Notes: generated by a model not told the origin, from the sequence alone. 64,000 bases of DNA from Naegleria gruberi (GCA_000004985.1 GG738914.1); one strand, 5' to 3'; positions 6,807 through 63,906 are shown, numbered from the stretch's first letter. Made by a program: numbers and translations.

Positions 6807-6887
6807 GTATGTTTTTTGTTTAATTTTTTTTTATTAATTTCATTAATATTTTTAATATTTGTTTAATTTTATTTAATTTACAAATAG

Positions 6888-7210
6888 ATTTAAATACACC
6901 TGAAGATAATCCAGTAGAATATGGACCATATGATGTGAATAGAGCAGTGTATGGATTAAAAGGAAATAGTTTGTTAATATATCCTAAATATAGAAGTGGA
7001 ATATTGATGCATACAGGTGAATGGAATATTAAACCAAATGATCCAATGCCAAATTCACATGGTTGCATTCATGCAATGCCACATGATATTCAATTAATTG
7101 CAAATATTTTAAAAAATGAATTGGGTGTTGTTGCAAATGAAAATACTTTTGGTAAATATCCATATCCATATCAACAACAAGGTTTATTAAGTGTTGTTTT
7201 AATTAAATAA
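6888..7210 (+). CDS. exon 2 of 2: L,D-transpeptidase (YkuD/ErfK-like) catalytic domain
   Basis: An 81-nt intron (6807..6887, GTATGT…CAAATAG) restores the frame. The exon translates …LNTPEDNPVEYGPYDVNRAVYGLKGNSLLIYPKYRSGILMHTGEWNIKPNDPMPNSHGCIHAMPHD… The ILMHTG and SHGCIH(A)M motifs match the LIHGT / SHGC(I/V)R active-site signature of L,D-transpeptidases. The TAA stop is at 7208..7210. Confidence 0.7.
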
Positions 7211-7547: not shown

Positions 7548-8522
7548 ATGACAAAAAAGAAAAAGTCACATAATGCTGGTTATCAAAGTGGGAAGAAGCA
7601 AAAACCCAAACAACAACAGCAACAACATTCCTCCGATGAAGATGACTATGATCATACTCATCCTATGAACGTGATGGACATGATGAATCAATTCTACTCT
7701 AACATCCCAGCCACCGTCTATAGTAATGGTCAAAAGATTGAACATGCCGATAGTAGGAATGCCTTTTCATCGTTTATGAGCAATTTACCATCGGATAGTC
7801 AACAATCAATGAAGGAATTAATGGCTAGAAATTTACATTGTGATGAGGATCAAGTAGAGGAAATTTATGGTAACAAGAAGAAGAATAATAACAATCAAAA
7901 GGCTTCAGCATCAGAAAAAGCAAAATCTAATTCTACACCAACTAGTGTTGCTACTTCTTCTTCTGCTACTCAACAATCAAAGAAGCCTCCTGTAAATATA
8001 TTCAATATGGAGCCTTTAGGAGAAACCCTGAAGGAGCTTAGGTTTGCCACGAGTGCTGAGTTTGATGAGCATTCGAGAAAGTTTGTGGAATTTCATTCCA
8101 AGTGTGCTAAGGCATTAAAGGAGGAGTATGGAATGCACACTGATCGTATGGTTGGTATTCCTATTGCTACTTTTGATTCGGAATTATTGGAAATTGCTAT
8201 AGAACAAGCAGCTCTTACCAGAGAAACTCAAGCTAATTCGAATAAGAAGGAAGACAAGGAACATGTTATGCCGCTAGAGCCATTCTTGGATAAGACATCA
8301 TTACCTGATTGGCATGTATTCAAAATTAATGGAAAGGGAAGTGTTATTGCAGGTCAATTGGCAGCAACTCTTTGTAAATTGTTCAGATTACCACTTGGAT
8401 CTATTAGAATTATTTATACTAAATATTACAACTGGAAACGTGAATATAAGGAAGCAGGCGAATTTGAACCAAGAGGAGAATATATAATTGCTGTCCTATT
8501 CCAATACAAAGAAAGGTATTGA
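7548..8522 (+). CDS. hypothetical protein, 5' part. It is probably continuous with the next ORF through a +1 frame change.
   Basis: aaaaaaaATG start, 324 codons, acidic/Ser-rich N-terminus. Frame A stops at 8520..8522, while frame B opens at 8488, only 35 nt earlier. Confidence 0.5.
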   Translation: MTKKKKSHNAGYQSGKKQKPKQQQQQHSSDEDDYDHTHPMNVMDMMNQFYSNIPATVYSNGQKIEHADSRNAFSSFMSNLPSDSQQSMKELMARNLHCDEDQVEEIYGNKKKNNNNQKASASEKAKSNSTPTSVATSSSATQQSKKPPVNIFNMEPLGETLKELRFATSAEFDEHSRKFVEFHSKCAKALKEEYGMHTDRMVGIPIATFDSELLEIAIEQAALTRETQANSNKKEDKEHVMPLEPFLDKTSLPDWHVFKINGKGSVIAGQLAATLCKLFRLPLGSIRIIYTKYYNWKREYKEAGEFEPRGEYIIAVLFQYKERY

Positions 8523-21700: not shown

Positions 21701-21747
21701 TTATTTACTTGATACGCGAATGGTGCACCTTGCTCCAAATGATTACC
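9703..21747 (-). CDS. exon 3 of 3 (4,014 codons) of a giant (~4,490 aa) membrane protein. It carries the C-half of a laminin-G/pentraxin-like domain, EGF-like Cys repeats, a very long Ser/Thr-rich beta-rich region, a Cys-rich ephrin-receptor/furin-like module, a C-terminal multi-pass TM domain (about 8-10 helices) and an acidic cytoplasmic tail.
   Basis: Single uninterrupted 12-kb frame. The N-terminal part of this exon (…WRHVAVSW…LYIDGTL…IDEFVIFDRVLTDNEI) matches the LamG/ConA-like jelly-roll fold. Many C-x-C-x-G-(Y/F) EGF-like units follow. Then CQECKPGFYKPINDSNACIPCDFNTYSS…, then hydrophobic helices (…LIGFGILMLVVVLIFLLI…, …WIAMLPLAIIYFVVFGLGSILFFLSLYIY…, …IASIVIVVSIVLVLGMLIY…). The track ORF starts at a TTG three codons inside the exon. 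Confidence 0.8.
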   Translation of the reverse strand, partial: GNHLEQGAPFAYQVNNTYFGFVLTDYRSLKVSINEPHVLRYLFTASNSWDTTVNINSKTWRHVAVSWSSDSGLLKLYIDGTLKDFKLDYKKGQKIPPNGTLTIGNLRSPGSGNVTFFLDKVTGAIDEFVIFDRVLTDNEIGILATPSTFCFGVSGKNSSVCSGRGSCVSFDTCSCTTPHSYGTNCEFCDTGYGGSTCKRMCGGLPFDDPLVCNGRGSCNEPEKCTCQYGYKFGGNYCQDVYCHGMINGCVNGNCTVVPGTEKLPGDNLCVCNPNFYNDPADNACKFTTCNGILSIDGTVCNLRGNCVAKDVCVCTNTFFGGQFCDQKICYGLLEKDENACSGRGICGDFGYCSCFISGTPVTNDCACLNLRTGRNCELGVPSPSQVTSKFPDNLYAIIDPNNSTLQFTVRSKFDATSVSITTYQNALHCIYRTSSSSVSFKGVFLYASRVTSDTDENVFDITFNCTFSFNSTAMNISNNGNLTLAYKDRQSATFSLFNFTNTYVGDLKLRSDSNIMPSSDSDSVEIKYDLPFSLRSQVYLLLGSSWTALSYYTAYPGYPTRVVAPIPAGLLSNSFGIIKAKILDYSLDFIVLNSDATISYQYPSFTIENTGSSSGLIFSLLIQNVLPSNVSNFQCLATSDGTLNQFSANVQSIQAVSQTSSLVTCGNINATDAGSYVLELKYKGRTASRQNIGTYRVGKSLGFDMISSTNVIGSPFFVTNDVGSSTLSIYLKFKFSGAQYSYSCVSVDGSISSASFNGNSLNCTVSFPPVTSPRQNSVVIRVKESVMTKSIPIYNVVYYHGVKESIITTSPNILQSIAGRVSGQLSVQTTKNNTLEATWNYYCLLNGQFFTATYSPALSTFVCSIDITLNNPVLENGIFYADFGIYVFNGISRIPITSSYLLPIASDSITIDTLDSSGALFVQSTQSFTINNFKLNKAKFNCLAIQSATLKNYEDKILVSTFPIVIDSNCQMTIQYNPSIPYAQGKYSPMLISPSISITYGSMQTDIIAVSTSFYFVTKYLSIAESFPSILDYATDTTDLKYVFLGVTFDATRRTNIQYKCRIGSTLYDSTILSDDMVRCEISSRSTLFTGINSPSERNITLEMTKDTTTSKTFQLDISKTPLKLPFDTIKPTPNYIESTQLPTISFKIISKDSFMSLPSETSFLTYSLRLNFEGTNREIGCNIAKTTYRIVCTITTGTISFSKTIQTITATLYSSFTIAGVNYKEPLTTLSFKIVAYQTVNVDNVYPKVITSDTVSNSPQVYLSFHNSYDSLLGIDWKCLTSKDVNMTLSNAPFTKGQTISTPDFLLCDLDPMISSKVNAGVVQFASFFNVTNLLLDSAPLQVTKLSSEVYYLQKGNVSVTGGSNLFAVSGSFSVPVSFNQTIPYSLIANNLVYCMLSNANGYVLGTITVAQKTSINCAFIPNSNIYGKLTLSINYFENVQAISKTFQSVLSANTDQELTVVPTVNIQSVSMYSVQTSKQFSIVITTAFNTSSNFGEASFGCVWNSVSDQSLNRVFPAKIINEGVFNCTEIEHYSGIYQLSIGLSLQGKPYFSITNTYATINVIGGSFLSPTTALYSGGTTATLYSDFIDQSSVSVSFVDEPTRAFTCSLIAFQTYSCIIPDLRSSSIIKPYYQYNLEIKTVPKVLSLPIVPYSPVDIIQVNPPFVIDTVGVASSVITLFSSSLTLGPNSNLTTVFDNEFNLKLENNIPYNLVQGVTSSSSSFTFSNSGNYRVSVSTKYLLANNFPFTLDITANKGNFQVLKKIPFSIASGQSDILLVNSVSSVSFVLNYGSLVVPSAIVKNNLYCKISTTLYKATVTALSSTVDQITCSITYSQVGSVSADLFYYANGSETSITSSPVTLYFENTYSVATVTPQFTLNTPQTVQVSLNSFGSMENIVYKCAISSASALTAVDAFVVGNVVTCPSLTGSRKTFFDIYAITRAVSVPFKITSNQFALYFETVKTISFTNPYLWTINDQLVNTIPDFQVSVSTIDVVETGIVKCVLTLDGSVVASTFVTKIVGSDILSCVFSTDTAVSKVNKMLELRLGIPDQSSNYQYLTNAKKIPVLPVPTPIANRNNMDMVAASVFNNGTFVIPYDFSPQNLQISVQMKDESVSILSGIDQSSAPYFVAPYVGPVDNLSPPTNYIPKKSVPFVTSFYMNVANKEISQSNTQVETYSLVVYDLLTVQKISPFVLTTSDISIRDYSYITIYLSKYSLNTTYSFNCYVKNDNDGTSYQTSAIIISSTVVKCKLAKTTKSGFSSVQLVIDGTSNFITDIKKILVLDVGFPLSLPYGTVYGGQNVTLTYSNMFDTIKSINHGGNSNWMSQYSFTLLFIDNKKIMTPLQNCQLLTSSGKFLNCLTPNVQSQVSSTSKQYYVVLYIDGFPSMTLISLFTAIKPSAVSSISPSIIDASKTSNSGTLSIAFASTLDSRLVTFAVKYRSSVSQLVVSEGTNGCVKKSATQVDCPLPTILSSNPGFLFVDFSFDDFSSYITLSQTVEIYSWSGSIGSASPATVDVYSATLVSINVLGLPRNTQPKIKLNDNINSKVLDGTYNQNTNQITFTTVPLTYLFGGQLPKRIPFQLSLDNGYSFGDFNLHLDFAVLASISISPTQAISGSAIKVSISGVSVDSPLLPLQVSLRINKQDTWLTSCSISGLDFCLDSAPSTTGTYSVVVYSQQKPIQAGSLTVNVIPMPTFSSISPSLVFSSTPTIKVYGSFSSVLVISQIQGKLQLKSTRRAILGQEIGLSPVSVTSTYVELSNPGNAPSGSYDLLLSFDSGSSFNTVNSLTYSSGGQLTSIDNITPDFVQTNQILTIVPNSLMLHFSQALPCGNTNNLQFTIATSSSFSSLTLSLQNIINFYQGSGLSTSDIFTCVDSSLFILYPPLNNTLPDYSILEFPFATTFTVTFNGIDTFSLPILIKSKYDEPRIINVQPYLLERNIPTSVTIVGENLGAAVGCQFSISNQIVRVAKVLTSVSSEINCEIPSQIITSADTSFYVQLYNSRSEYSNSYNLYIYDRLKVLNVNPKKTWTYDDIPVTLQVEGITQVVNISKLATVEIRAMFGTVISTDVCTVMSENIIMCIAPKREKGLTSISLSVNRREWYSLNGEGFTYAAFKNGSSNTNALQLSSDAKSMFEYVPCMAGYGASSYRDVCQECKPGFYKPINDSNACIPCDFNTYSSSFQAKECISCPVNTLTLQKASTSLTECICQNNYYLNPSPKKLDDYCVKCNEQSMICNAGNNIHPYPKKGYWMGKHDNYTVYSCLPIEACGGFSIENCTVGYISGKCGACDVGYYKFNGFCTKCGDDAIWRLIGFGILMLVVVLIFLLISSIKLSHLASISIALSFFQVVAMFTKYNVKWPVVMEYSYTASSATLFNTDFINPKCIFPDINQLTKWYLTSLFPVYVFVLFVLLYILGILRNVIVSKFGHHVKFEYREPYRYHNDIDEVEYLKKKEEEKKLNKKQRLKRRIIENLNDWKIWFINLFVWLRNFLVWLLKEKMSAKQMKVFFNQLINGYTAFLSFTFAFIISQASDIFYCTPQPDNTCALVSSPDISILDPQWIAMLPLAIIYFVVFGLGSILFFLSLYIYKKHLKLEVRKDLLIHNPDLTKTELDELKWKPKNPVLLQKVKDFDLRFKFIQNRFKKRLFYWEIIITFRKLLLSIFNTFLLPLQTVTFALITVFIAFLLQSQFVPFKTKFHNLLEWVSLVCTELVLFFGLLFLVDDGAWKGNETLRGFCEWIASIVIVVSIVLVLGMLIYDIYVRRKKDRKKERLARRELERKYGKEKAKSLQALYSKLFGNPLTQMTKVVLLEDEEAQEKWNIIENPLCDSYEEFHDDWVVEENPLFIPDDVDAYARMNTSKRKVEFNLTLFESDSDSSDEDNSKNIRDIMEGLVNLRRIKKKIRLAKQKGGKVKRKFTTSKASKITDKLEKQDKEMELSHNLDVEIYNNTLSRLSSRIAMSPRGGRNRNDSTMTDEESSIDSPRSYSAATSYDHYQKREPKPKDIALVTEEIEIEEDEL

Positions 21748-37384: not shown

Positions 37385-37469
37385 GGTGGGTTGGTCGAGT
37401 GGTCTAAGACGACACTAAGTATTATAACCGTGTTCCGAAAGGGCGTGGGTTCAAATCCCGCACTCATCA
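37385..37469 (+). tRNA. tRNA-Leu: type II (long variable arm) tRNA, Leu-like, with a short intron. The anticodon stem is imperfect and the anticodon is uncertain (possibly AAG). It could be a pseudogene.
   Basis: GGTGGGTTGGTCGAGTGGTCTAAGACG…GGGCGTGGGTTCAAATCCCGCACTCATCA. The acceptor stem, D arm (A box), variable arm and T arm (B box) are good. Compared with the copy at 38054, the anticodon arm lacks one G, so 31:39 cannot pair. A T-run follows. Confidence 0.6.
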
Positions 37470-38053: not shown

Positions 38054-38144
38054 GGTGAGTTGGTCGAGTGGTCTAAGACGACACGTTAAGGTATGATTAA
38101 TACCGTGTTCCGCAAGGGCGTGGGTTCAAATCCCACACTCATCA
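38054..38144 (+). tRNA. tRNA-Leu: tRNA-Leu (anticodon AAG) with an ~11-nt intron 3' of position 37
   Basis: GGTGAGTTGGTCGAGTGGTCTAAGACGACACGTTAAGG[tatgattaata]CCGTGTTCCGCAAGGGCGTGGGTTCAAATCCCACACTCATCA. All stems pair, the variable arm is long, the discriminator is A and a T-run follows. Confidence 0.8.
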
Positions 38145-39366: not shown

Positions 39367-40698
39367 ATGTCTTTACTTGCTAGCAGGGCACAACTGAATT
39401 ATCCTAGATGTGTTTTTGTTTCATCAAATAATGAAGTTTATATTGCTGATGAAGGTAATCAAAGAATTAGAAAAGTAGTAGAGAATGGAAATATTGTAAC
39501 AATTGCAGGAAATGGAACTGCTGGATTCAGTGGTGATAATGGCCCTGCAACAAGTGCACAACTGTATAATCCTTTTGGTATTTTTGTTTCATCAAATAAT
39601 GAAGTTTATATTTCTGATTCTGGAAATAATAGAATTAGAAAAGTATTAGAAAATGGAAATATTATAACAATTGCTGGAAATGGAACTGTTGGATTCAGTG
39701 GTGATAATGGCCCTGCAACAAGTGCACAACTGTATAATCCTTTTGGTATTTTTGTTTCAGCAAATAATGAGGTTTATATTTCTGATTCTAACAATAATAT
39801 AATTAGAAAAATATTAGAAAATGGAAATATTGTAACAATTGCTGGAAATGGCACCAGGGGATTCAGTGGTGATTCACCATTTGATATTAGAATGTATCCT
39901 CATGTTGGAAATAGTAGCCTGTATTCCAAAATAGAATTTCATAATTTGAAAAAACATTCAAGAGATCAATTATTTGGATTGCAAATTTATGGATTCATTC
40001 CACTTATTGAAAAAACTTCACCAAAATTTTGTAATATTTTGAAGAATGAAAAGATACTTTGTTTGATGAGTTCATCGCAACAAGAAATTATTCAAAAATT
40101 AATTGACTCTTTGATGTATGATAAGAATAAGGTAAATTTTAGCAAAGAAGAAATCTTGGATGTTTTATTCATTTTGGGTTTATTTAAGAATGGTGAATTT
40201 ATTGATTTGAAAAGATCATTGACAAGTGAATTTGAGAACTCACTCACATTAGAAGGTCTTACTTTCAAATGGGAAACAATTGAAAATTTACTCAAAGTTT
40301 GCAAGGAAGAATTTAATGTTCAAAATTACATTCTTGATCATTTGAATAACTATTGTATTGAATATGCTGTTGTTCAAATGAGGACCAAAGAAGGAAACAC
40401 TTTATTACGGACTCTTCCAATAATTATGAGAAATGGTGTTGCCCTATTTTCAACAATGATTTTTACTCAACCAACTGCAATTAATGTTGAGGAAACAATT
40501 GAAAATGAACCACAAACAATTGAATCATTATATAATGACATGAACACAAGTGATGTGAAAATCAAAATGGGACAAAACAAATACTTATATTGCCACAAAA
40601 CTGTATTGAGTTCATCAAGTACATTCTTTAATGCATTATTTGAAAGTGGATCTTGTTTCAGTGATTTGAGTGATGATGGAGAATTCACACCTGACTAA
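39367..40698 (+). CDS. NHL-repeat + BTB/POZ protein, part before an in-frame TAA
   Basis: aaaaATG start (MSLLASRAQLNYPRC…). Three near-identical 59-aa NHL units (…NNEVYI(A/S)D.GN.RIRKV.ENGNI.TIAGNGT.GFSGDNGPATSAQLYNPFGIFVS…). The later DVKIKMGQNKYLYCHKTVLSSSSTFFNALFESG is the start of a BTB fold. TAA at 40696..40698. Confidence 0.75.
   Translation: MSLLASRAQLNYPRCVFVSSNNEVYIADEGNQRIRKVVENGNIVTIAGNGTAGFSGDNGPATSAQLYNPFGIFVSSNNEVYISDSGNNRIRKVLENGNIITIAGNGTVGFSGDNGPATSAQLYNPFGIFVSANNEVYISDSNNNIIRKILENGNIVTIAGNGTRGFSGDSPFDIRMYPHVGNSSLYSKIEFHNLKKHSRDQLFGLQIYGFIPLIEKTSPKFCNILKNEKILCLMSSSQQEIIQKLIDSLMYDKNKVNFSKEEILDVLFILGLFKNGEFIDLKRSLTSEFENSLTLEGLTFKWETIENLLKVCKEEFNVQNYILDHLNNYCIEYAVVQMRTKEGNTLLRTLPIIMRNGVALFSTMIFTQPTAINVEETIENEPQTIESLYNDMNTSDVKIKMGQNKYLYCHKTVLSSSSTFFNALFESGSCFSDLSDDGEFTPD
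39416..39900 (+). repeat. tandem ~177-nt nucleotide repeat, about 2.7 copies, encoding the NHL units
   Basis: The units beginning tcatcaaataatgaagtttatat… recur at about 39422, 39599 and 39776 with very high nucleotide identity, including at synonymous positions. Confidence 0.8.
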
Positions 40699-41049
40699 TC
40701 AGAAGATTTGGAATTATTGGAAATTGTGATCAAACATTGTTATGGAATTTCATTTGACAAAATTGATCCTGTTAAAATTATTGGATTACTTGATATGGCA
40801 ATGAAACATGAAATTCAATATCTGGTCGATTATTGCAAGAATAACTTTAATCTATCCATTGATAATTACTTTACTATGCTTGAAGCATGTGAAAATTATT
40901 TTGATTTACAACCATTTGAGCACTTTTTGAGAGAGATTGTCAAATTTAGCATCTCCAACAGAAAACAACTTTTCAGCGATCACAATGGAATTTCCAAATT
41001 ACCTGAAAAAGTTTGGCAAGAAATCTTAAAGCTTTCACAGGACTTTTGA
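40699..41049 (+). CDS. continuation of the BTB/BACK region in the same frame after the TAA at 40696..40698, either read through or pseudogenised
   Basis: SEDLELLEIVIKHCYGISFDKIDPVKIIGLLDMAMKHEIQYLVDYCKNN… corresponds to the C-terminal half of a BTB domain (…LL.F.YTG…LL.AA..L.I..L…C). It is collinear with the upstream half. There is no ATG of its own until a TTG. Confidence 0.55.
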   Translation, partial: SEDLELLEIVIKHCYGISFDKIDPVKIIGLLDMAMKHEIQYLVDYCKNNFNLSIDNYFTMLEACENYFDLQPFEHFLREIVKFSISNRKQLFSDHNGISKLPEKVWQEILKLSQDF

Positions 41050-41569: not shown

Positions 41570-42883
41570 ATGCTAATTAAGAAAATCCGAGATGTTCCTT
41601 CATCACTAAAATACGAAACTATAGCCAAGCCAATTATTAATCAAGTTTTACATAGTAATGACGACCTTGTTAGTGATGACTATTATAACTTTGATTGTAA
41701 GAAACATGGTTTTTATTTAATTTCAAAACTCTTCACCTATAATGATAATAGAATGCTTAATTTGGCAATTAAAGTGATGAACATGTTGAATTTGTGGAAT
41801 AACAAATTCATTGTCATGATGATTGTAAAGATAAATCCAACAACAGTATTTGAAAACGCAAGTAAAGAACTGAAAAGAGACAGAGAAATTGTTTTAGAGG
41901 CTGTTGGGTGTAATCCTTGTGTTTTGAAATATTTATCTTATGATTTGATAAGTGACAGAGCAATTATTATGAAAGCAATGCAAATTAATGGACTAGCTCT
42001 TAAATATGCCTCAAAAGAATTACAAAATGACAGAGAAATAGTACTTCTTGCAGTTAAGAATAATGGAACGAGTCTAAACTATACTAATATTAGAAATGAC
42101 AGAGAAATTGAAATGGAAGCAGTTAAGAAAAATGGTCTTGCACTTGAATATGTCTCACACCATTTGAGTAATGACAAGGAAATTGTATTGACAGCTATTA
42201 ATCAAGACCTGAATGCTTTTATATATGCATCAATTGAAATACAAAATGATAGAGAACTTGTTTTGGAATTAGTTAAAAAATCTGCATGGATTTTTCAATT
42301 TGCTTCAAAAGAATTAAGAGGTGATAGAGAAATTGTTACAGAAGCTATTAAACGAAATGCTTACTGTGTTTATAGACATGTATCAAAAGAATTAAGAAAT
42401 GATAGACAGTTGGCATTGATAGCAATTAAACAACATGCAAGTTTACTTGAATACGCCTCAGAGGAAATTAGAAATGATAGAGAAATTGTAATGGAGGCAA
42501 TTAGGCGTGATGAGCAAACATTAGAAATGGCATCTGATCAATTGAAAAGTGACAAGTCATTTTTGTTGGAAATAGTTCAACAAAATTCCCAAATGTTAGA
42601 ATATTTCTCAGATGAATTAAGAAATGACAAGGAATTTATATTAGAATTAGTTAAAAAAAGTGCATCTACTATCAAATATGCTTCTTATAATTTACGAAAT
42701 GATAGAGAATTTATTCTAAAAGCTGTGAAACTAAATGGAATGGTACTAAAATATGCCACTCTTTTTAGAAATGATAGAGAAATTGTATTGGAGTCAATTA
42801 AGCAAGATATAAACACCTATGAATATGCCTCTCGTGATTTAAAAAAAGATAGAGAGGTTTTATTAGAAAAGTTATTTAATTGA
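41570..42883 (+). CDS. DUF4116-type tandem-repeat protein
   Basis: Twelve or more units of a ~30-aa repeat of the form …(L/I)(K/R)NDREIVLEAVK.NG.AL.YAS.EL…. Confidence 0.85.
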   Translation: MLIKKIRDVPSSLKYETIAKPIINQVLHSNDDLVSDDYYNFDCKKHGFYLISKLFTYNDNRMLNLAIKVMNMLNLWNNKFIVMMIVKINPTTVFENASKELKRDREIVLEAVGCNPCVLKYLSYDLISDRAIIMKAMQINGLALKYASKELQNDREIVLLAVKNNGTSLNYTNIRNDREIEMEAVKKNGLALEYVSHHLSNDKEIVLTAINQDLNAFIYASIEIQNDRELVLELVKKSAWIFQFASKELRGDREIVTEAIKRNAYCVYRHVSKELRNDRQLALIAIKQHASLLEYASEEIRNDREIVMEAIRRDEQTLEMASDQLKSDKSFLLEIVQQNSQMLEYFSDELRNDKEFILELVKKSASTIKYASYNLRNDREFILKAVKLNGMVLKYATLFRNDREIVLESIKQDINTYEYASRDLKKDREVLLEKLFN

Positions 42884-62466: not shown

Positions 62467-63906
62467 TTATTTGAAAATTTGAACTCGATGATTACAAAAA
62501 TCAGCAACGTATAATTCTCCTGAGAATTCGTTTAAACAGAGAGAGAAGGGTTTGAAGAATTGATCCATTCTCCTACCTGCGCTACCGAAAATTTGAACCA
62601 CATCACCTGTTGTGTTGTTCAAGGATACAATACGGTTATTGTCTTGATCACAAACAATAATGTTGTTTCTGACCTTATCAATGACAATACTTCTTGGATG
62701 ATTGAATGAAGAGGAATATCCACTAATAATTCCAAAAGTTTGAATAGAGGTCCAATTTCCACTATCATTCTTGACCAATGTTTGTAAACGATGTCCATCA
62801 ACTTCACAAACAATCACCTCTCCACGAGCATTCAAATCAATACTCCAAGGTCCCTTGAAAAAAATGGAATCAACCTCTGGGGTTTCTCCAATGCTTTCCA
62901 ATAAATTACCATTACTAGTTCTCAAAATTTGTACTCTATTATTGTTACAATCACAAACATAGAGAATTCTCTCAAAATTGTTCTCCTTATTTCCATTCGA
63001 GCAAACCATACCACTTGGTAAATTGAATTGGTTTGGACTCTTTCCCTTAGAGTTTGGTGTACCAGCTCTCCAAATAAAGTCGCACTTTTGGCCATTCTTT
63101 GAGCATGCTATAAGTTTTTCCAAATCATACTTGTAAATACAATGGTCGTTGCAACTAATAATGAGAGCATCATTCTTCTTTCCATCAAAATTTGGTTCAA
63201 TGCACAAATGTTTAGCTGGTAGATTAATGGTAGTTCTATATCTCCATCCTGTTGTAAAAACTTGTATTCTATTATTTCCCATATCCAATACGAGAATTGT
63301 TGAGCTATTGTAAGAGATGGCAATATCGCAAGGACAATAGAACATGTCATTTGTTTTTCCACTAGCTCTTGTTTTACCAATACTATTCTCAATTGAAAAT
63401 TCCAATGAAAATGGTTTCAATACAGTTCCTCTCATCTTTTCCTTGAGCGCGTTGTAGAATGGATTGATAATTGAGGCATCCAATGTGAGAGTTACAGCTT
63501 CCTCCTCTTCAGCAATAGATACAGGTTCTATTGGTCTAACGAGTCTAACAGTTACATTCTTGGCAATTTCCTTATTTTGTCTCAAGTAATTAATAAAGTC
63601 ACGACTGGAAATTGGATAAGAAGGAGGTGCAGAACGAGAGCTCTGACGAGTGGCCACAGTTGTCACATTTTGCATGATCGGTCTGGTATTGCTTCTCTTT
63701 CTCGAGGCACCACAACGTGAGCAGTGACCCTTCTGATCCATAGTAGAACTTGTACAGTGTTGTACATTTCCGTTTGTTTTGTTTCCAATACGTTCATGAT
63801 CATCTCCATTAACGACAATTGATGAATCAATAATTGTCAATGATGATGGTGATGGTGGCTCGTCTGCTGAGGCTGCTGATGGTGTCAATGTTGAGGCAGA
63901 AGTCAT
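62467..63906 (-). CDS. NHL-repeat protein with a Ser/Pro-rich N-terminal region. The track ORF continues to a TTG at 63978 through a hydrophobic segment, so an upstream exon or signal anchor is possible.
   Basis: First ATG at 63906. C-terminal six-blade-type NHL units (…FGSAGRRMDQFFKPFSLCLNEFSGELYVADFCNHRVQIFK, …ILYVCDCNNNRVQIL…, …VIVCEVDGHRLQTL…). Confidence 0.75.
   Translation of the reverse strand: MTSASTLTPSAASADEPPSPSSLTIIDSSIVVNGDDHERIGNKTNGNVQHCTSSTMDQKGHCSRCGASRKRSNTRPIMQNVTTVATRQSSRSAPPSYPISSRDFINYLRQNKEIAKNVTVRLVRPIEPVSIAEEEEAVTLTLDASIINPFYNALKEKMRGTVLKPFSLEFSIENSIGKTRASGKTNDMFYCPCDIAISYNSSTILVLDMGNNRIQVFTTGWRYRTTINLPAKHLCIEPNFDGKKNDALIISCNDHCIYKYDLEKLIACSKNGQKCDFIWRAGTPNSKGKSPNQFNLPSGMVCSNGNKENNFERILYVCDCNNNRVQILRTSNGNLLESIGETPEVDSIFFKGPWSIDLNARGEVIVCEVDGHRLQTLVKNDSGNWTSIQTFGIISGYSSSFNHPRSIVIDKVRNNIIVCDQDNNRIVSLNNTTGDVVQIFGSAGRRMDQFFKPFSLCLNEFSGELYVADFCNHRVQIFK

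What the first reader, a model, noticed from the sequence alone, without database searches (positions are those of the whole stretch)
40690..40710. In-frame TAA inside the BTB domain of the NHL-BTB gene
The frame of the NHL-repeat gene continues unchanged across a single TAA (40696..40698). The residues before the TAA (…FFNALFESG…DDGEFTPD) and after it (SEDLELLEIVIKHCYG…LLDMAMKHEIQYLVDYC) are consecutive halves of one BTB/POZ fold. No GT…AG intron can remove the codon. The possibilities are a young pseudogene, a sequencing error, or a site of stop-codon readthrough. TAA is otherwise used as a genuine terminator in this window, for example in the HDAC and L,D-transpeptidase genes.
Basis: seen in the sequence. 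Interest (0 to 1): 0.55.

Follow-up and report, generated by a model that had tools for sequence, protein, structure and literature searches.

The report
Premature stop in Naegleria NHL-BTB paralogue
One copy of a Naegleria-specific NHL–BTB gene family carries a single-base change (GAA to TAA) that cuts its BTB domain in half, which is most likely an ordinary, very recent gene-disabling mutation or a base-call error, not a special translation signal.

Summary
The window is Naegleria gruberi NEG-M, and the gene is NAEGRDRAFT_74470 (XP_002670527.1). Its 443-aa GenBank model ends at the TAA at 40696-40698.

- **Frame:** it stays open for another 116 codons, to a TGA at 41047-41049.
- **Domain:** a Pfam BTB match and matches to solved BTB structures run continuously across the stop, which lies at about the midpoint of the BTB match.
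- **Relatives:** the five closest paralogous proteins read FTPD-E-SEDLELLEI here, so the change is one G>T step, GAA to TAA. Of 18 aligned relatives, 17 have a sense residue in this column and one has a deletion there. None ends here.
- **Age:** the segment after the stop is as conserved as the segment before it, with 2/113 against 13/264 lineage-specific changes. It also ends at the same C-terminus as the closest paralogue. The lesion is therefore very young, or a sequencing error.
- **Second lesion:** this copy has only 3 NHL units, whereas full-length paralogues have 6.
- **Readthrough or recoding:** nothing supports either. TAA ends 21 of 28 long ORFs, TAA-T is a common terminator context, no downstream structure is predicted, and no suppressor tRNA was found.

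Verdict: an ordinary young pseudogene, null allele or base-call error. Low interest.

The parts
39367..40698 (+). Annotated CDS of NAEGRDRAFT_74470 (443 aa), from ATG to the premature TAA
   Evidence: ORF list and translation. P0003 (XP_002670527.1, 443 aa) is 100% identical and ends here.
39388..39873 (+). NHL repeat region: 168-nt tandem unit in 2.9 copies, giving 3 NHL units where full-length paralogues have 6
   Evidence: Tandem Repeats Finder. Pfam NHL and TEN_NHL hits. Motif counts are 3 in the window against 6 in P0002 and P0008. Alignment gaps.
39874..40533 (+). Family-specific linker of about 220 aa between the NHL region and the BTB domain. Mostly helical in a low-confidence model of paralogue P0001.
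   Evidence: Aligns colinearly with P0001, P0002, P0004, P0005 and P0008. Predicted helices 36-193 of P0001, in a low-confidence model.
40534..40845 (+). BTB/POZ domain (residues 390-493 of the 560-aa conceptual product), interrupted at residue 444
   Evidence: Pfam PF00651, 37 bits, profile positions 6-105 of 110. The family profile matches solved BTB domains of Miz1/NAC1, BCL6, KBTBD2, KBTBD4 and KEAP1, with E-values down to 2.6e-14, continuously across this position.
40696..40698 (+). Premature TAA, at the position of Glu (inferred GAA) in the closest paralogues
   Evidence: Sequence. The alignment column is E in P0001, P0002, P0006, P0008 and P0004. It is a sense residue in 17 of 18 aligned relatives and a gap in the other.
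40699..41046 (+). Untranslated remainder of the gene: C-terminal half of the BTB domain plus C-terminal helices. 116 codons, still open and conserved.
   Evidence: Translation. 85.8% identity to P0001, and only 2 of 113 changes are specific to the window copy. Same C-terminus, LSQDF, as P0001.
41047..41049 (+). Ancestral terminator (TGA) of the full-length gene
   Evidence: Translation. P0001 ends at the homologous residue.

Best explanation
The locus is a recently diverged paralogue, about 85% identical, of a Naegleria-specific gene family. The family architecture is six NHL units, a helical linker of about 200 aa, and a C-terminal BTB/POZ domain.

In this copy one G>T transversion turned a Glu codon (GAA) into TAA at about the midpoint of the BTB match. 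Translation ends there. The product is 443 aa long and lacks the C-terminal half of the BTB core and the C-terminal helices. The same copy has also lost three of the six NHL units through an in-frame deletion within the 168-nt tandem array.

The copy is therefore a very young pseudogene or null allele. Because Naegleria is a heterozygous diploid, it may be only one haplotype.

- **Shown:** the stop, its position inside the BTB domain, Glu in the paralogues, the loss of NHL units, and the absence of decay downstream.
- **Inferred:** that the base is real and not a base-call error, and that the truncated product has lost its function.
For: - **Identity of the locus:** N. gruberi NAEGRDRAFT_74470. 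The deposited model ends at this TAA.
- **Ancestral codon:** the five closest paralogous proteins read FTPD-E-SEDLELLEI. TAA is one step from GAA.
- **Wider family:** of 18 aligned relatives, from N. gruberi, N. lovaniensis and environmental contigs, 17 continue through the column with a sense residue and one has a deletion there.
- **Domain:** BTB matches from Pfam and from a family profile against solved structures span the stop.
- **Second lesion:** 3 NHL units against 6 in full-length members.
- **Recency:** there is no further stop or frameshift in 116 codons, and the C-terminus is the same as in P0001. Changes specific to this copy are 2/113 downstream against 13/264 upstream, and identity to P0001 is 85.8% against 87.1%.
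- **Standard code:** TAA ends 21 of 28 long ORFs, 9 of them as TAA-T.
- **Heterozygosity:** Naegleria is described as a heterozygous diploid, and heterozygosity has been reported for N. gruberi (PMC9928731).
Against: - No reads or traces could be inspected, so a base-call error cannot be excluded.
- The absence of any relaxed constraint downstream fits a sequencing error or readthrough as well as it fits a very recent mutation.
- Paralogue DNA was not retrievable, so branch-specific dN/dS could not be computed.
- The loss of NHL units is in frame and could be a tolerated variant rather than a sign of decay.
- Expression is unknown.
Confidence: 0.62

Rival explanations
1. Sequencing or assembly base-call error. 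The true genome has GAA at 40696-40698 and encodes an intact 560-aa NHL-BTB protein. The 443-aa GenBank model would then be an artefact.
For: The difference is a single base. The downstream 116 codons are fully intact and as conserved as the upstream part, which is exactly what an error predicts. From my own knowledge, not checked here, the assembly is a draft Sanger whole-genome shotgun.
Against: Only a small fraction of random single-base errors produce a stop codon, so the prior per gene is low. The copy has an independent second abnormality, 3 NHL units instead of 6, which makes a genuinely decaying copy more plausible. That abnormality could in turn be a collapse of the repeat array during assembly. 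No read data are available to test any of this.
Confidence: 0.2
2. The truncation is real but the gene is still functional. In this reading the 443-aa product (3 NHL units, the linker and an N-terminal BTB stub) is the working product of a sub- or neo-functionalised paralogue.
For: The upstream ORF is intact, with the family-typical start MSLLASRAQL. Its rate of lineage-specific change is modest, 13/264 against 8/264 in the sister copy, Fisher's exact test not significant.
Against: The product ends mid-domain. It keeps only the N-terminal part of the BTB match (Pfam profile positions 6-44 of 110) and three of six NHL units, so neither domain is complete. No relative in the family ends at or near this point. 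If the truncation were old and functional, the downstream 348 nt should have decayed, and they have not.
Confidence: 0.1
3. Programmed or leaky readthrough of the UAA. A near-cognate tRNA would insert an amino acid, so that some full-length NHL-BTB protein is made and its level is set by termination efficiency.
For: The downstream frame is open and conserved to the ancestral terminator. That is the classical comparative signature of readthrough, but here it rests on paralogues only.
Against: - From established knowledge of eukaryotic termination, UAA is generally the least leaky stop.
- The context TAA-T is shared with 9 of the 21 TAA terminators in the window.
- No stable RNA structure follows the stop. 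The minimum free energies are weaker than those of shuffled sequences, z = +1.18 and +0.77.
- The stop is not conserved in any relative.
- tRNA scans of the window found Phe(GAA), Leu(AAG) and a degenerate Leu-like gene, and no suppressor.
- A literature search found no report linking Naegleria to readthrough of such genes.
Confidence: 0.03
4. Genetic-code deviation, with TAA read as a sense codon in this organism.
For: None beyond the in-frame TAA itself.
Against: TAA terminates 21 of 28 open frames of at least 200 codons in the window. The only other long-ORF TAA interruption lies in an 81-nt GTATGT...AG intron. The paralogues have Glu here, and no known TAA reassignment is to Glu (from my own knowledge).
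Confidence: 0.01

Closest known systems
Young non-processed (duplicated) pseudogene or segregating null allele created by a nonsense mutation in a lineage-specific expanded gene family
   Same: A single disabling substitution in a recent paralogue. The rest of the ORF is still intact. There is a second structural lesion, the loss of NHL units. The paralogues are intact at the same site.
   Different: No relaxed constraint can be measured yet. Whether the base is real, and whether the gene is expressed, are both unverified.
BTB/POZ substrate-adaptor proteins that pair a BTB domain with a beta-propeller, such as the BTB-Kelch proteins KEAP1, KBTBD2 and KBTBD4
   Same: A BTB domain combined with a beta-propeller-type repeat domain. 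The family profile matches the BTB regions of KBTBD2, KBTBD4 and KEAP1, and for KBTBD2 the match runs past the BTB core to profile position 155.
   Different: The propeller is NHL, not Kelch, and it lies N-terminal to the BTB domain rather than C-terminal. A family-specific linker of about 200 aa sits between the two. Binding to Cul3 has not been tested. The window copy itself is truncated.
Programmed stop-codon readthrough genes, such as the tobacco mosaic virus UAG-CARYYA context, UGA-CUAG contexts, and Drosophila or mammalian readthrough extensions
   Same: An open, protein-like frame continues after an in-frame stop.
   Different: Here the stop lies inside a domain, not at its end. It is UAA in an ordinary context, has no downstream structure, and is absent from all relatives.

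Membership tests
BTB/POZ domain (PF00651) | Profile match above the curated threshold | tested here: met
   37 bits against a cut-off of 20.5, residues 390-493, profile positions 6-105 of 110, with X at the stop.
BTB/POZ domain (PF00651) | Colinear similarity to solved BTB structures across the whole core | tested here: met
   The family profile (A4) hits Miz1/NAC1, BCL6, KBTBD2, KBTBD4 and KEAP1 BTB domains, with E-values from 2.6e-14 to 1e-8. Profile positions 21-119 are aligned without a break at the stop column.
BTB/POZ domain (PF00651) | Uninterrupted coding sequence for the domain | tested here: not met
   TAA at 40696-40698 ends the ORF after about profile position 50-55.
NHL-repeat beta-propeller (PF01436) | NHL repeat profile matches | tested here: met
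   NHL E = 1.3e-15 and TEN_NHL E = 5.9e-20.
NHL-repeat beta-propeller (PF01436) | A full set of units. Full-length paralogues have six, and NHL propellers are typically six-bladed (the latter from my own knowledge). | tested here: not met
   3 units in the window (2.9 copies of 168 nt) against 6 in P0002 and P0008.
Programmed stop-codon readthrough | Stop codon conserved at the same position in relatives, with a conserved downstream frame | tested here: not met
   Of 18 aligned relatives, 17 have a sense residue at the column and one has a deletion. The five closest paralogous proteins have Glu.
Programmed stop-codon readthrough | A leaky stop and context (UGA or UAG with a stimulatory 3' context), or a downstream stimulatory RNA structure | tested here: not met
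   UAA-UCA-GAA. TAA-T is used by 9 of 21 ordinary TAA terminators. Folding downstream is weaker than in shuffles, z = +1.18 and +0.77.
Programmed stop-codon readthrough | Measured translation beyond the stop | not testable with these tools
   Needs Ribo-seq, proteomics or a reporter assay.
Stop-codon reassignment (TAA as a sense codon) | Recurrent in-frame TAA in conserved genes, and TAA not used as a terminator | tested here: not met
   TAA ends 21 of 28 long ORFs. Only two single-stop interruptions occur in the window, and one of them is intronic.
Young duplicated pseudogene or null allele | A disabling mutation relative to intact paralogues | tested here: met
   GAA to TAA inferred from Glu in the five closest paralogous proteins.
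Young duplicated pseudogene or null allele | Relaxed constraint or further lesions after the disabling event | tested here: inconclusive
   No excess change downstream, 2/113 against 13/264. A second lesion exists, the loss of three NHL units, but it is in frame. dN/dS could not be computed because paralogue DNA was not retrievable.
Young duplicated pseudogene or null allele | The base is real in the genome and not an assembly error | not testable with these tools
   No reads or traces are available. Metagenome scans found no orthologous DNA.

The most novel reading that the evidence does not exclude
The UAA is real and is read through at a low but functional level. Naegleria would then make mostly a BTB-less NHL-linker protein and a small amount of full-length NHL-BTB adaptor from one gene. 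That would be an intradomain readthrough switch.
Probability: 0.03. Interest if true: 0.45.

Novelty: new member of a known kind. Interest (0 to 1): 0.1.

Why it matters
It matters mainly for annotation. XP_002670527.1 / NAEGRDRAFT_74470 is deposited as a normal 443-aa protein. It is really a full-length family member truncated by a nonsense codon inside its BTB domain, and it should be flagged as a pseudogene or possible sequencing error.

It also documents turnover in a Naegleria-specific NHL-linker-BTB family: very similar copies on several scaffolds, loss of NHL units, and a nonsense mutation. It bears on no open question about translation or the genetic code.

Tried and rejected
- **Paralogue DNA.** I tried to retrieve paralogue or own-locus DNA with the look-up of encoding contigs for P0003, P0001 and P0004. 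None is on record, so no dN/dS or codon-level comparison was possible.
- **Orthologous DNA in metagenomes.** The protein-guided scan and an exact DNA pattern with N at the variable base both found nothing.
- **Single sequence against solved structures.** The single BTB sequence gave no hit. A family profile was needed.
- **AlphaFold on paralogue P0001.** With a 4-sequence alignment the mean pLDDT was 55 and the BTB region was below 50. I used only the secondary-structure string, with caution, and ran no fold search.
- **Codon-usage log-likelihood by frame, downstream of the stop.** It did not discriminate: frame 0 scored 0.185 and frame 2 scored 0.201.
- **Intron hypothesis.** 128 frame-preserving GT...AG pairs exist, but none has a consensus-like donor and all would remove conserved residues. 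Rejected.
- **Suppressor tRNA hypothesis.** The two tRNA-like genes just upstream, at 37385-37469 and 38054-38144, are Leu-type. One is Leu(AAG) with an 11-nt intron and the other has a degenerate anticodon arm. Rejected.
- **Code reassignment.** Rejected on terminator usage.
- **Literature.** Searches for Naegleria with readthrough, and with BTB and NHL, found nothing relevant. The 2010 genome paper is not held in the library.

Full report
**Observation.** The codon at 40696-40698 is TAA, in the frame of the ORF that begins at ATG 39367. Before it lie 443 sense codons. After it the same frame runs for 116 more codons, to TGA at 41047-41049. With X placed at the stop, the 560-aa conceptual product matches Pfam BTB/POZ at residues 390-493, profile positions 6-105 of 110, with 37 bits against a gathering score of 20.5. 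The N-terminal fragment alone covers only profile positions 6-44, and the C-terminal fragment alone is not recognised. In all six frames of the 64-kb window, only two stop codons have at least 100 open codons on both sides. One is this TAA and the other is at 6821. The feature is therefore real and not a chance alignment of open frames.

**Identity of the locus.** A protein search returned only Naegleria gruberi proteins. P0003 (EFC37783.1 / XP_002670527.1, NAEGRDRAFT_74470, 443 aa) is 100% identical to the window ORF and ends exactly at the TAA. The window is therefore N. gruberi NEG-M, and the public annotation treats the TAA as the terminator without comment. About 34% G+C and long ORFs with few interruptions fit this organism.

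**What the relatives show.** The closest paralogues are P0001, P0002 and P0006, about 85% identical to the window copy and about 99% identical to each other. P0004 and P0008 are about 65% identical to the window copy. All five read ...FTPD-E-SEDLELLEI... at this position. TAA is one G>T transversion from GAA.

tblastn of P0001 against the window gives a single HSP, 39892-41046, 84.9% identity over 391 aa, in one frame across the stop. An exhaustive HMMER search of 1.8 billion cluster representatives found 91 relatives, 25 of them below 1e-10. Those that carry names are N. gruberi or N. lovaniensis proteins, and the unnamed ones come from ENA or JGI environmental contigs.

The long family members are 660-760 aa, with about 350 aa of NHL repeats N-terminal to the linker and BTB domain. 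In an alignment of 18 relatives with the window sequence, 17 continue through the stop column with a sense residue and one has a deletion there. None ends there.

**Where in the fold.** A profile of the family's C-terminal region matches solved BTB domains: Miz1/NAC1 fusion 4u2n at 2.6e-14, KBTBD2 8h36 at 1.5e-11, KBTBD4, KEAP1 and BCL6. The alignment is continuous over profile positions 21-119, and over 10-155 for KBTBD2. The stop is residue 70 of the 186-aa query, so it falls at about the midpoint of that alignment. In the printed alignment it sits just before the conserved stretch that aligns with PEGFCILLDFMYT of BCL6.

A low-confidence AlphaFold model of P0001 (mean pLDDT 55) places two strands and a helix before the equivalent Glu274. 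A helix covering residues 275-288 follows immediately, and six or seven more helices come after it. The 443-aa product therefore lacks the C-terminal half of the BTB core and the C-terminal helical extension. By general knowledge of BTB domains, such a fragment is not expected to fold or dimerise. That last point is an inference.

**Age of the lesion.** I used P0008 as outgroup to the pair formed by the window copy and P0001.
- Changes specific to the window copy are 13/264 upstream of the stop and 2/113 downstream.
- Changes specific to P0001 are 8/264 upstream and 5/113 downstream.
- Identity to P0001 is 87.1% upstream and 85.8% downstream. Fisher's exact tests are not significant.
- There is no second stop and no frameshift, and both proteins end in LSQDF.

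Nothing downstream has begun to decay. The stop is therefore evolutionarily very recent, or it is a base-call error, or it is read through.

**A second lesion.** The NHL region of this copy is a 168-nt tandem unit present 2.9 times, at 39388-39873. That gives 3 IAGNG/NEVY units, against 6 in P0002 and P0008. The start of the protein (MSLLASRAQL) matches the paralogues' N-termini, so the loss is internal and in frame. This points to unequal crossing-over within the array, or to collapse of the array during assembly. Half a set of NHL units together with half a BTB domain is what a decaying duplicate looks like. This tips the balance toward a real lesion.

**Alternatives tested.**
- **Intron.** 128 frame-preserving GT...AG pairs bracket the TAA within 400 nt on each side. 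None has a GTAAG, GTATG, GTAAA or GTAAT donor. The shortest are 33-60 nt with donors such as GTGATG. All would delete residues that the paralogues encode colinearly. For comparison, a real intron in this window, at 6807-6887, has a GTATGT donor and is 81 nt long.
- **Code change.** TAA terminates 21 of 28 open frames of at least 200 codons.
- **Readthrough.** The context TAA-T is shared by 9 of those 21 terminators. RNA folding of 40696-40815 and of 40640-40760 is weaker than that of shuffled controls, with z = +1.18 and +0.77. The stop is not conserved in any relative.
- **Suppressor tRNA.** The window's tRNA genes are Phe(GAA), Leu(AAG) with an 11-nt intron, and a Leu-like gene with a disrupted anticodon arm. 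None has a UUA anticodon.
- **Literature.** No paper in the library links Naegleria to readthrough of such genes or describes this family.

**What could not be tested.** No reads or traces are available. Paralogue DNA could not be fetched. Two metagenome scans found no orthologous DNA. Whether the T is real, and whether it is homozygous, remains open. Naegleria is described as a heterozygous diploid, and heterozygosity has been reported for N. gruberi (PMC9928731). A null allele on one haplotype is therefore a realistic sub-case.

**Conclusion.** The best explanation, with confidence of about 0.6, is a genuine and very recent GAA>TAA nonsense mutation in a young paralogue that has already lost NHL units. 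In other words, it is a nascent pseudogene or null allele. The other readings are:
- a base-call error, about 0.2;
- a still-functional truncated product, about 0.1;
- readthrough, about 0.03;
- code deviation, about 0.01.

This is an ordinary event of a known kind. Its practical value is to correct the annotation of XP_002670527.1. Interest is low, 0.1.

Noticed in passing
window 6807-6887 (+): An 81-nt in-frame intron (GTATGT...AG) lies inside the L,D-transpeptidase (YkuD) gene and carries a TAA at 6821-6823 that looks like a terminator. The catalytic HGCIH motif lies downstream of it. The spliced product (TGLYTF|DLNTPED) matches PF03734. The real terminator is the TAA at 7208-7210.
   Followed up: yes
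window 37385-37469 (+) and 38054-38144 (+): Two Leu-type tRNA genes lie about 670 bp apart, just upstream of the NHL-BTB gene. The second is tRNA-Leu(AAG) with an 11-nt intron. The first scores 38.6 bits against Rfam tRNA, but its anticodon arm is disrupted and ARAGORN does not call it, so it may be a tRNA pseudogene. Neither could decode UAA.
   Followed up: partly
window 39388-39873 (+): The NHL region of this copy is a 168-nt tandem repeat of 2.9 copies with 89% matches. That gives 3 NHL units, whereas full-length paralogues have 6. The cause is either unequal crossing-over or collapse of the repeat during assembly.
   Followed up: partly
paralogues P0001, P0002, P0006 and P0004, P0007, P0008 (other N. 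gruberi scaffolds): Nearly identical family members (each set falls in one 90%-identity cluster) sit on separate scaffolds. Some of these scaffolds are very small, at 2 kb, 13 kb and 24 kb. This suggests very recent duplications or unmerged haplotigs in the NEG-M assembly. Several gene models look truncated or mis-spliced: P0001 lacks the NHL part, and P0002 and P0006 end abnormally.
   Followed up: no
window 39874-40533 (+) and relatives: A mostly helical linker of about 200 aa between the NHL region and the BTB domain is conserved across the Naegleria family. It includes the motifs LKKHSRD..F, PLIE, IIQKLIDS and VLFILGLFKNGEF, and it has no Pfam match.
   Followed up: no
window 41570-42883 (+): The neighbouring gene encodes a protein built from about ten copies of an approximately 36-aa repeat (...LRNDREIVLEAVKQNG.AL.YAS...). 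From memory this resembles DUF4116 repeats, but I did not scan it.
   Followed up: no
window 62479-63189 (-): A second, distantly related NHL-repeat ORF lies near the end of the window, about 25% identical to the NHL part of P0002.
   Followed up: no
window 21738-21745 (-), 8488-8522 (+), 31258 (-): Pairs of long ORFs abut or overlap in different frames: 324 aa with 4011 aa, 324 aa with 370 aa, and 208 aa with 375 aa. Short introns probably join them into larger genes.
   Followed up: no
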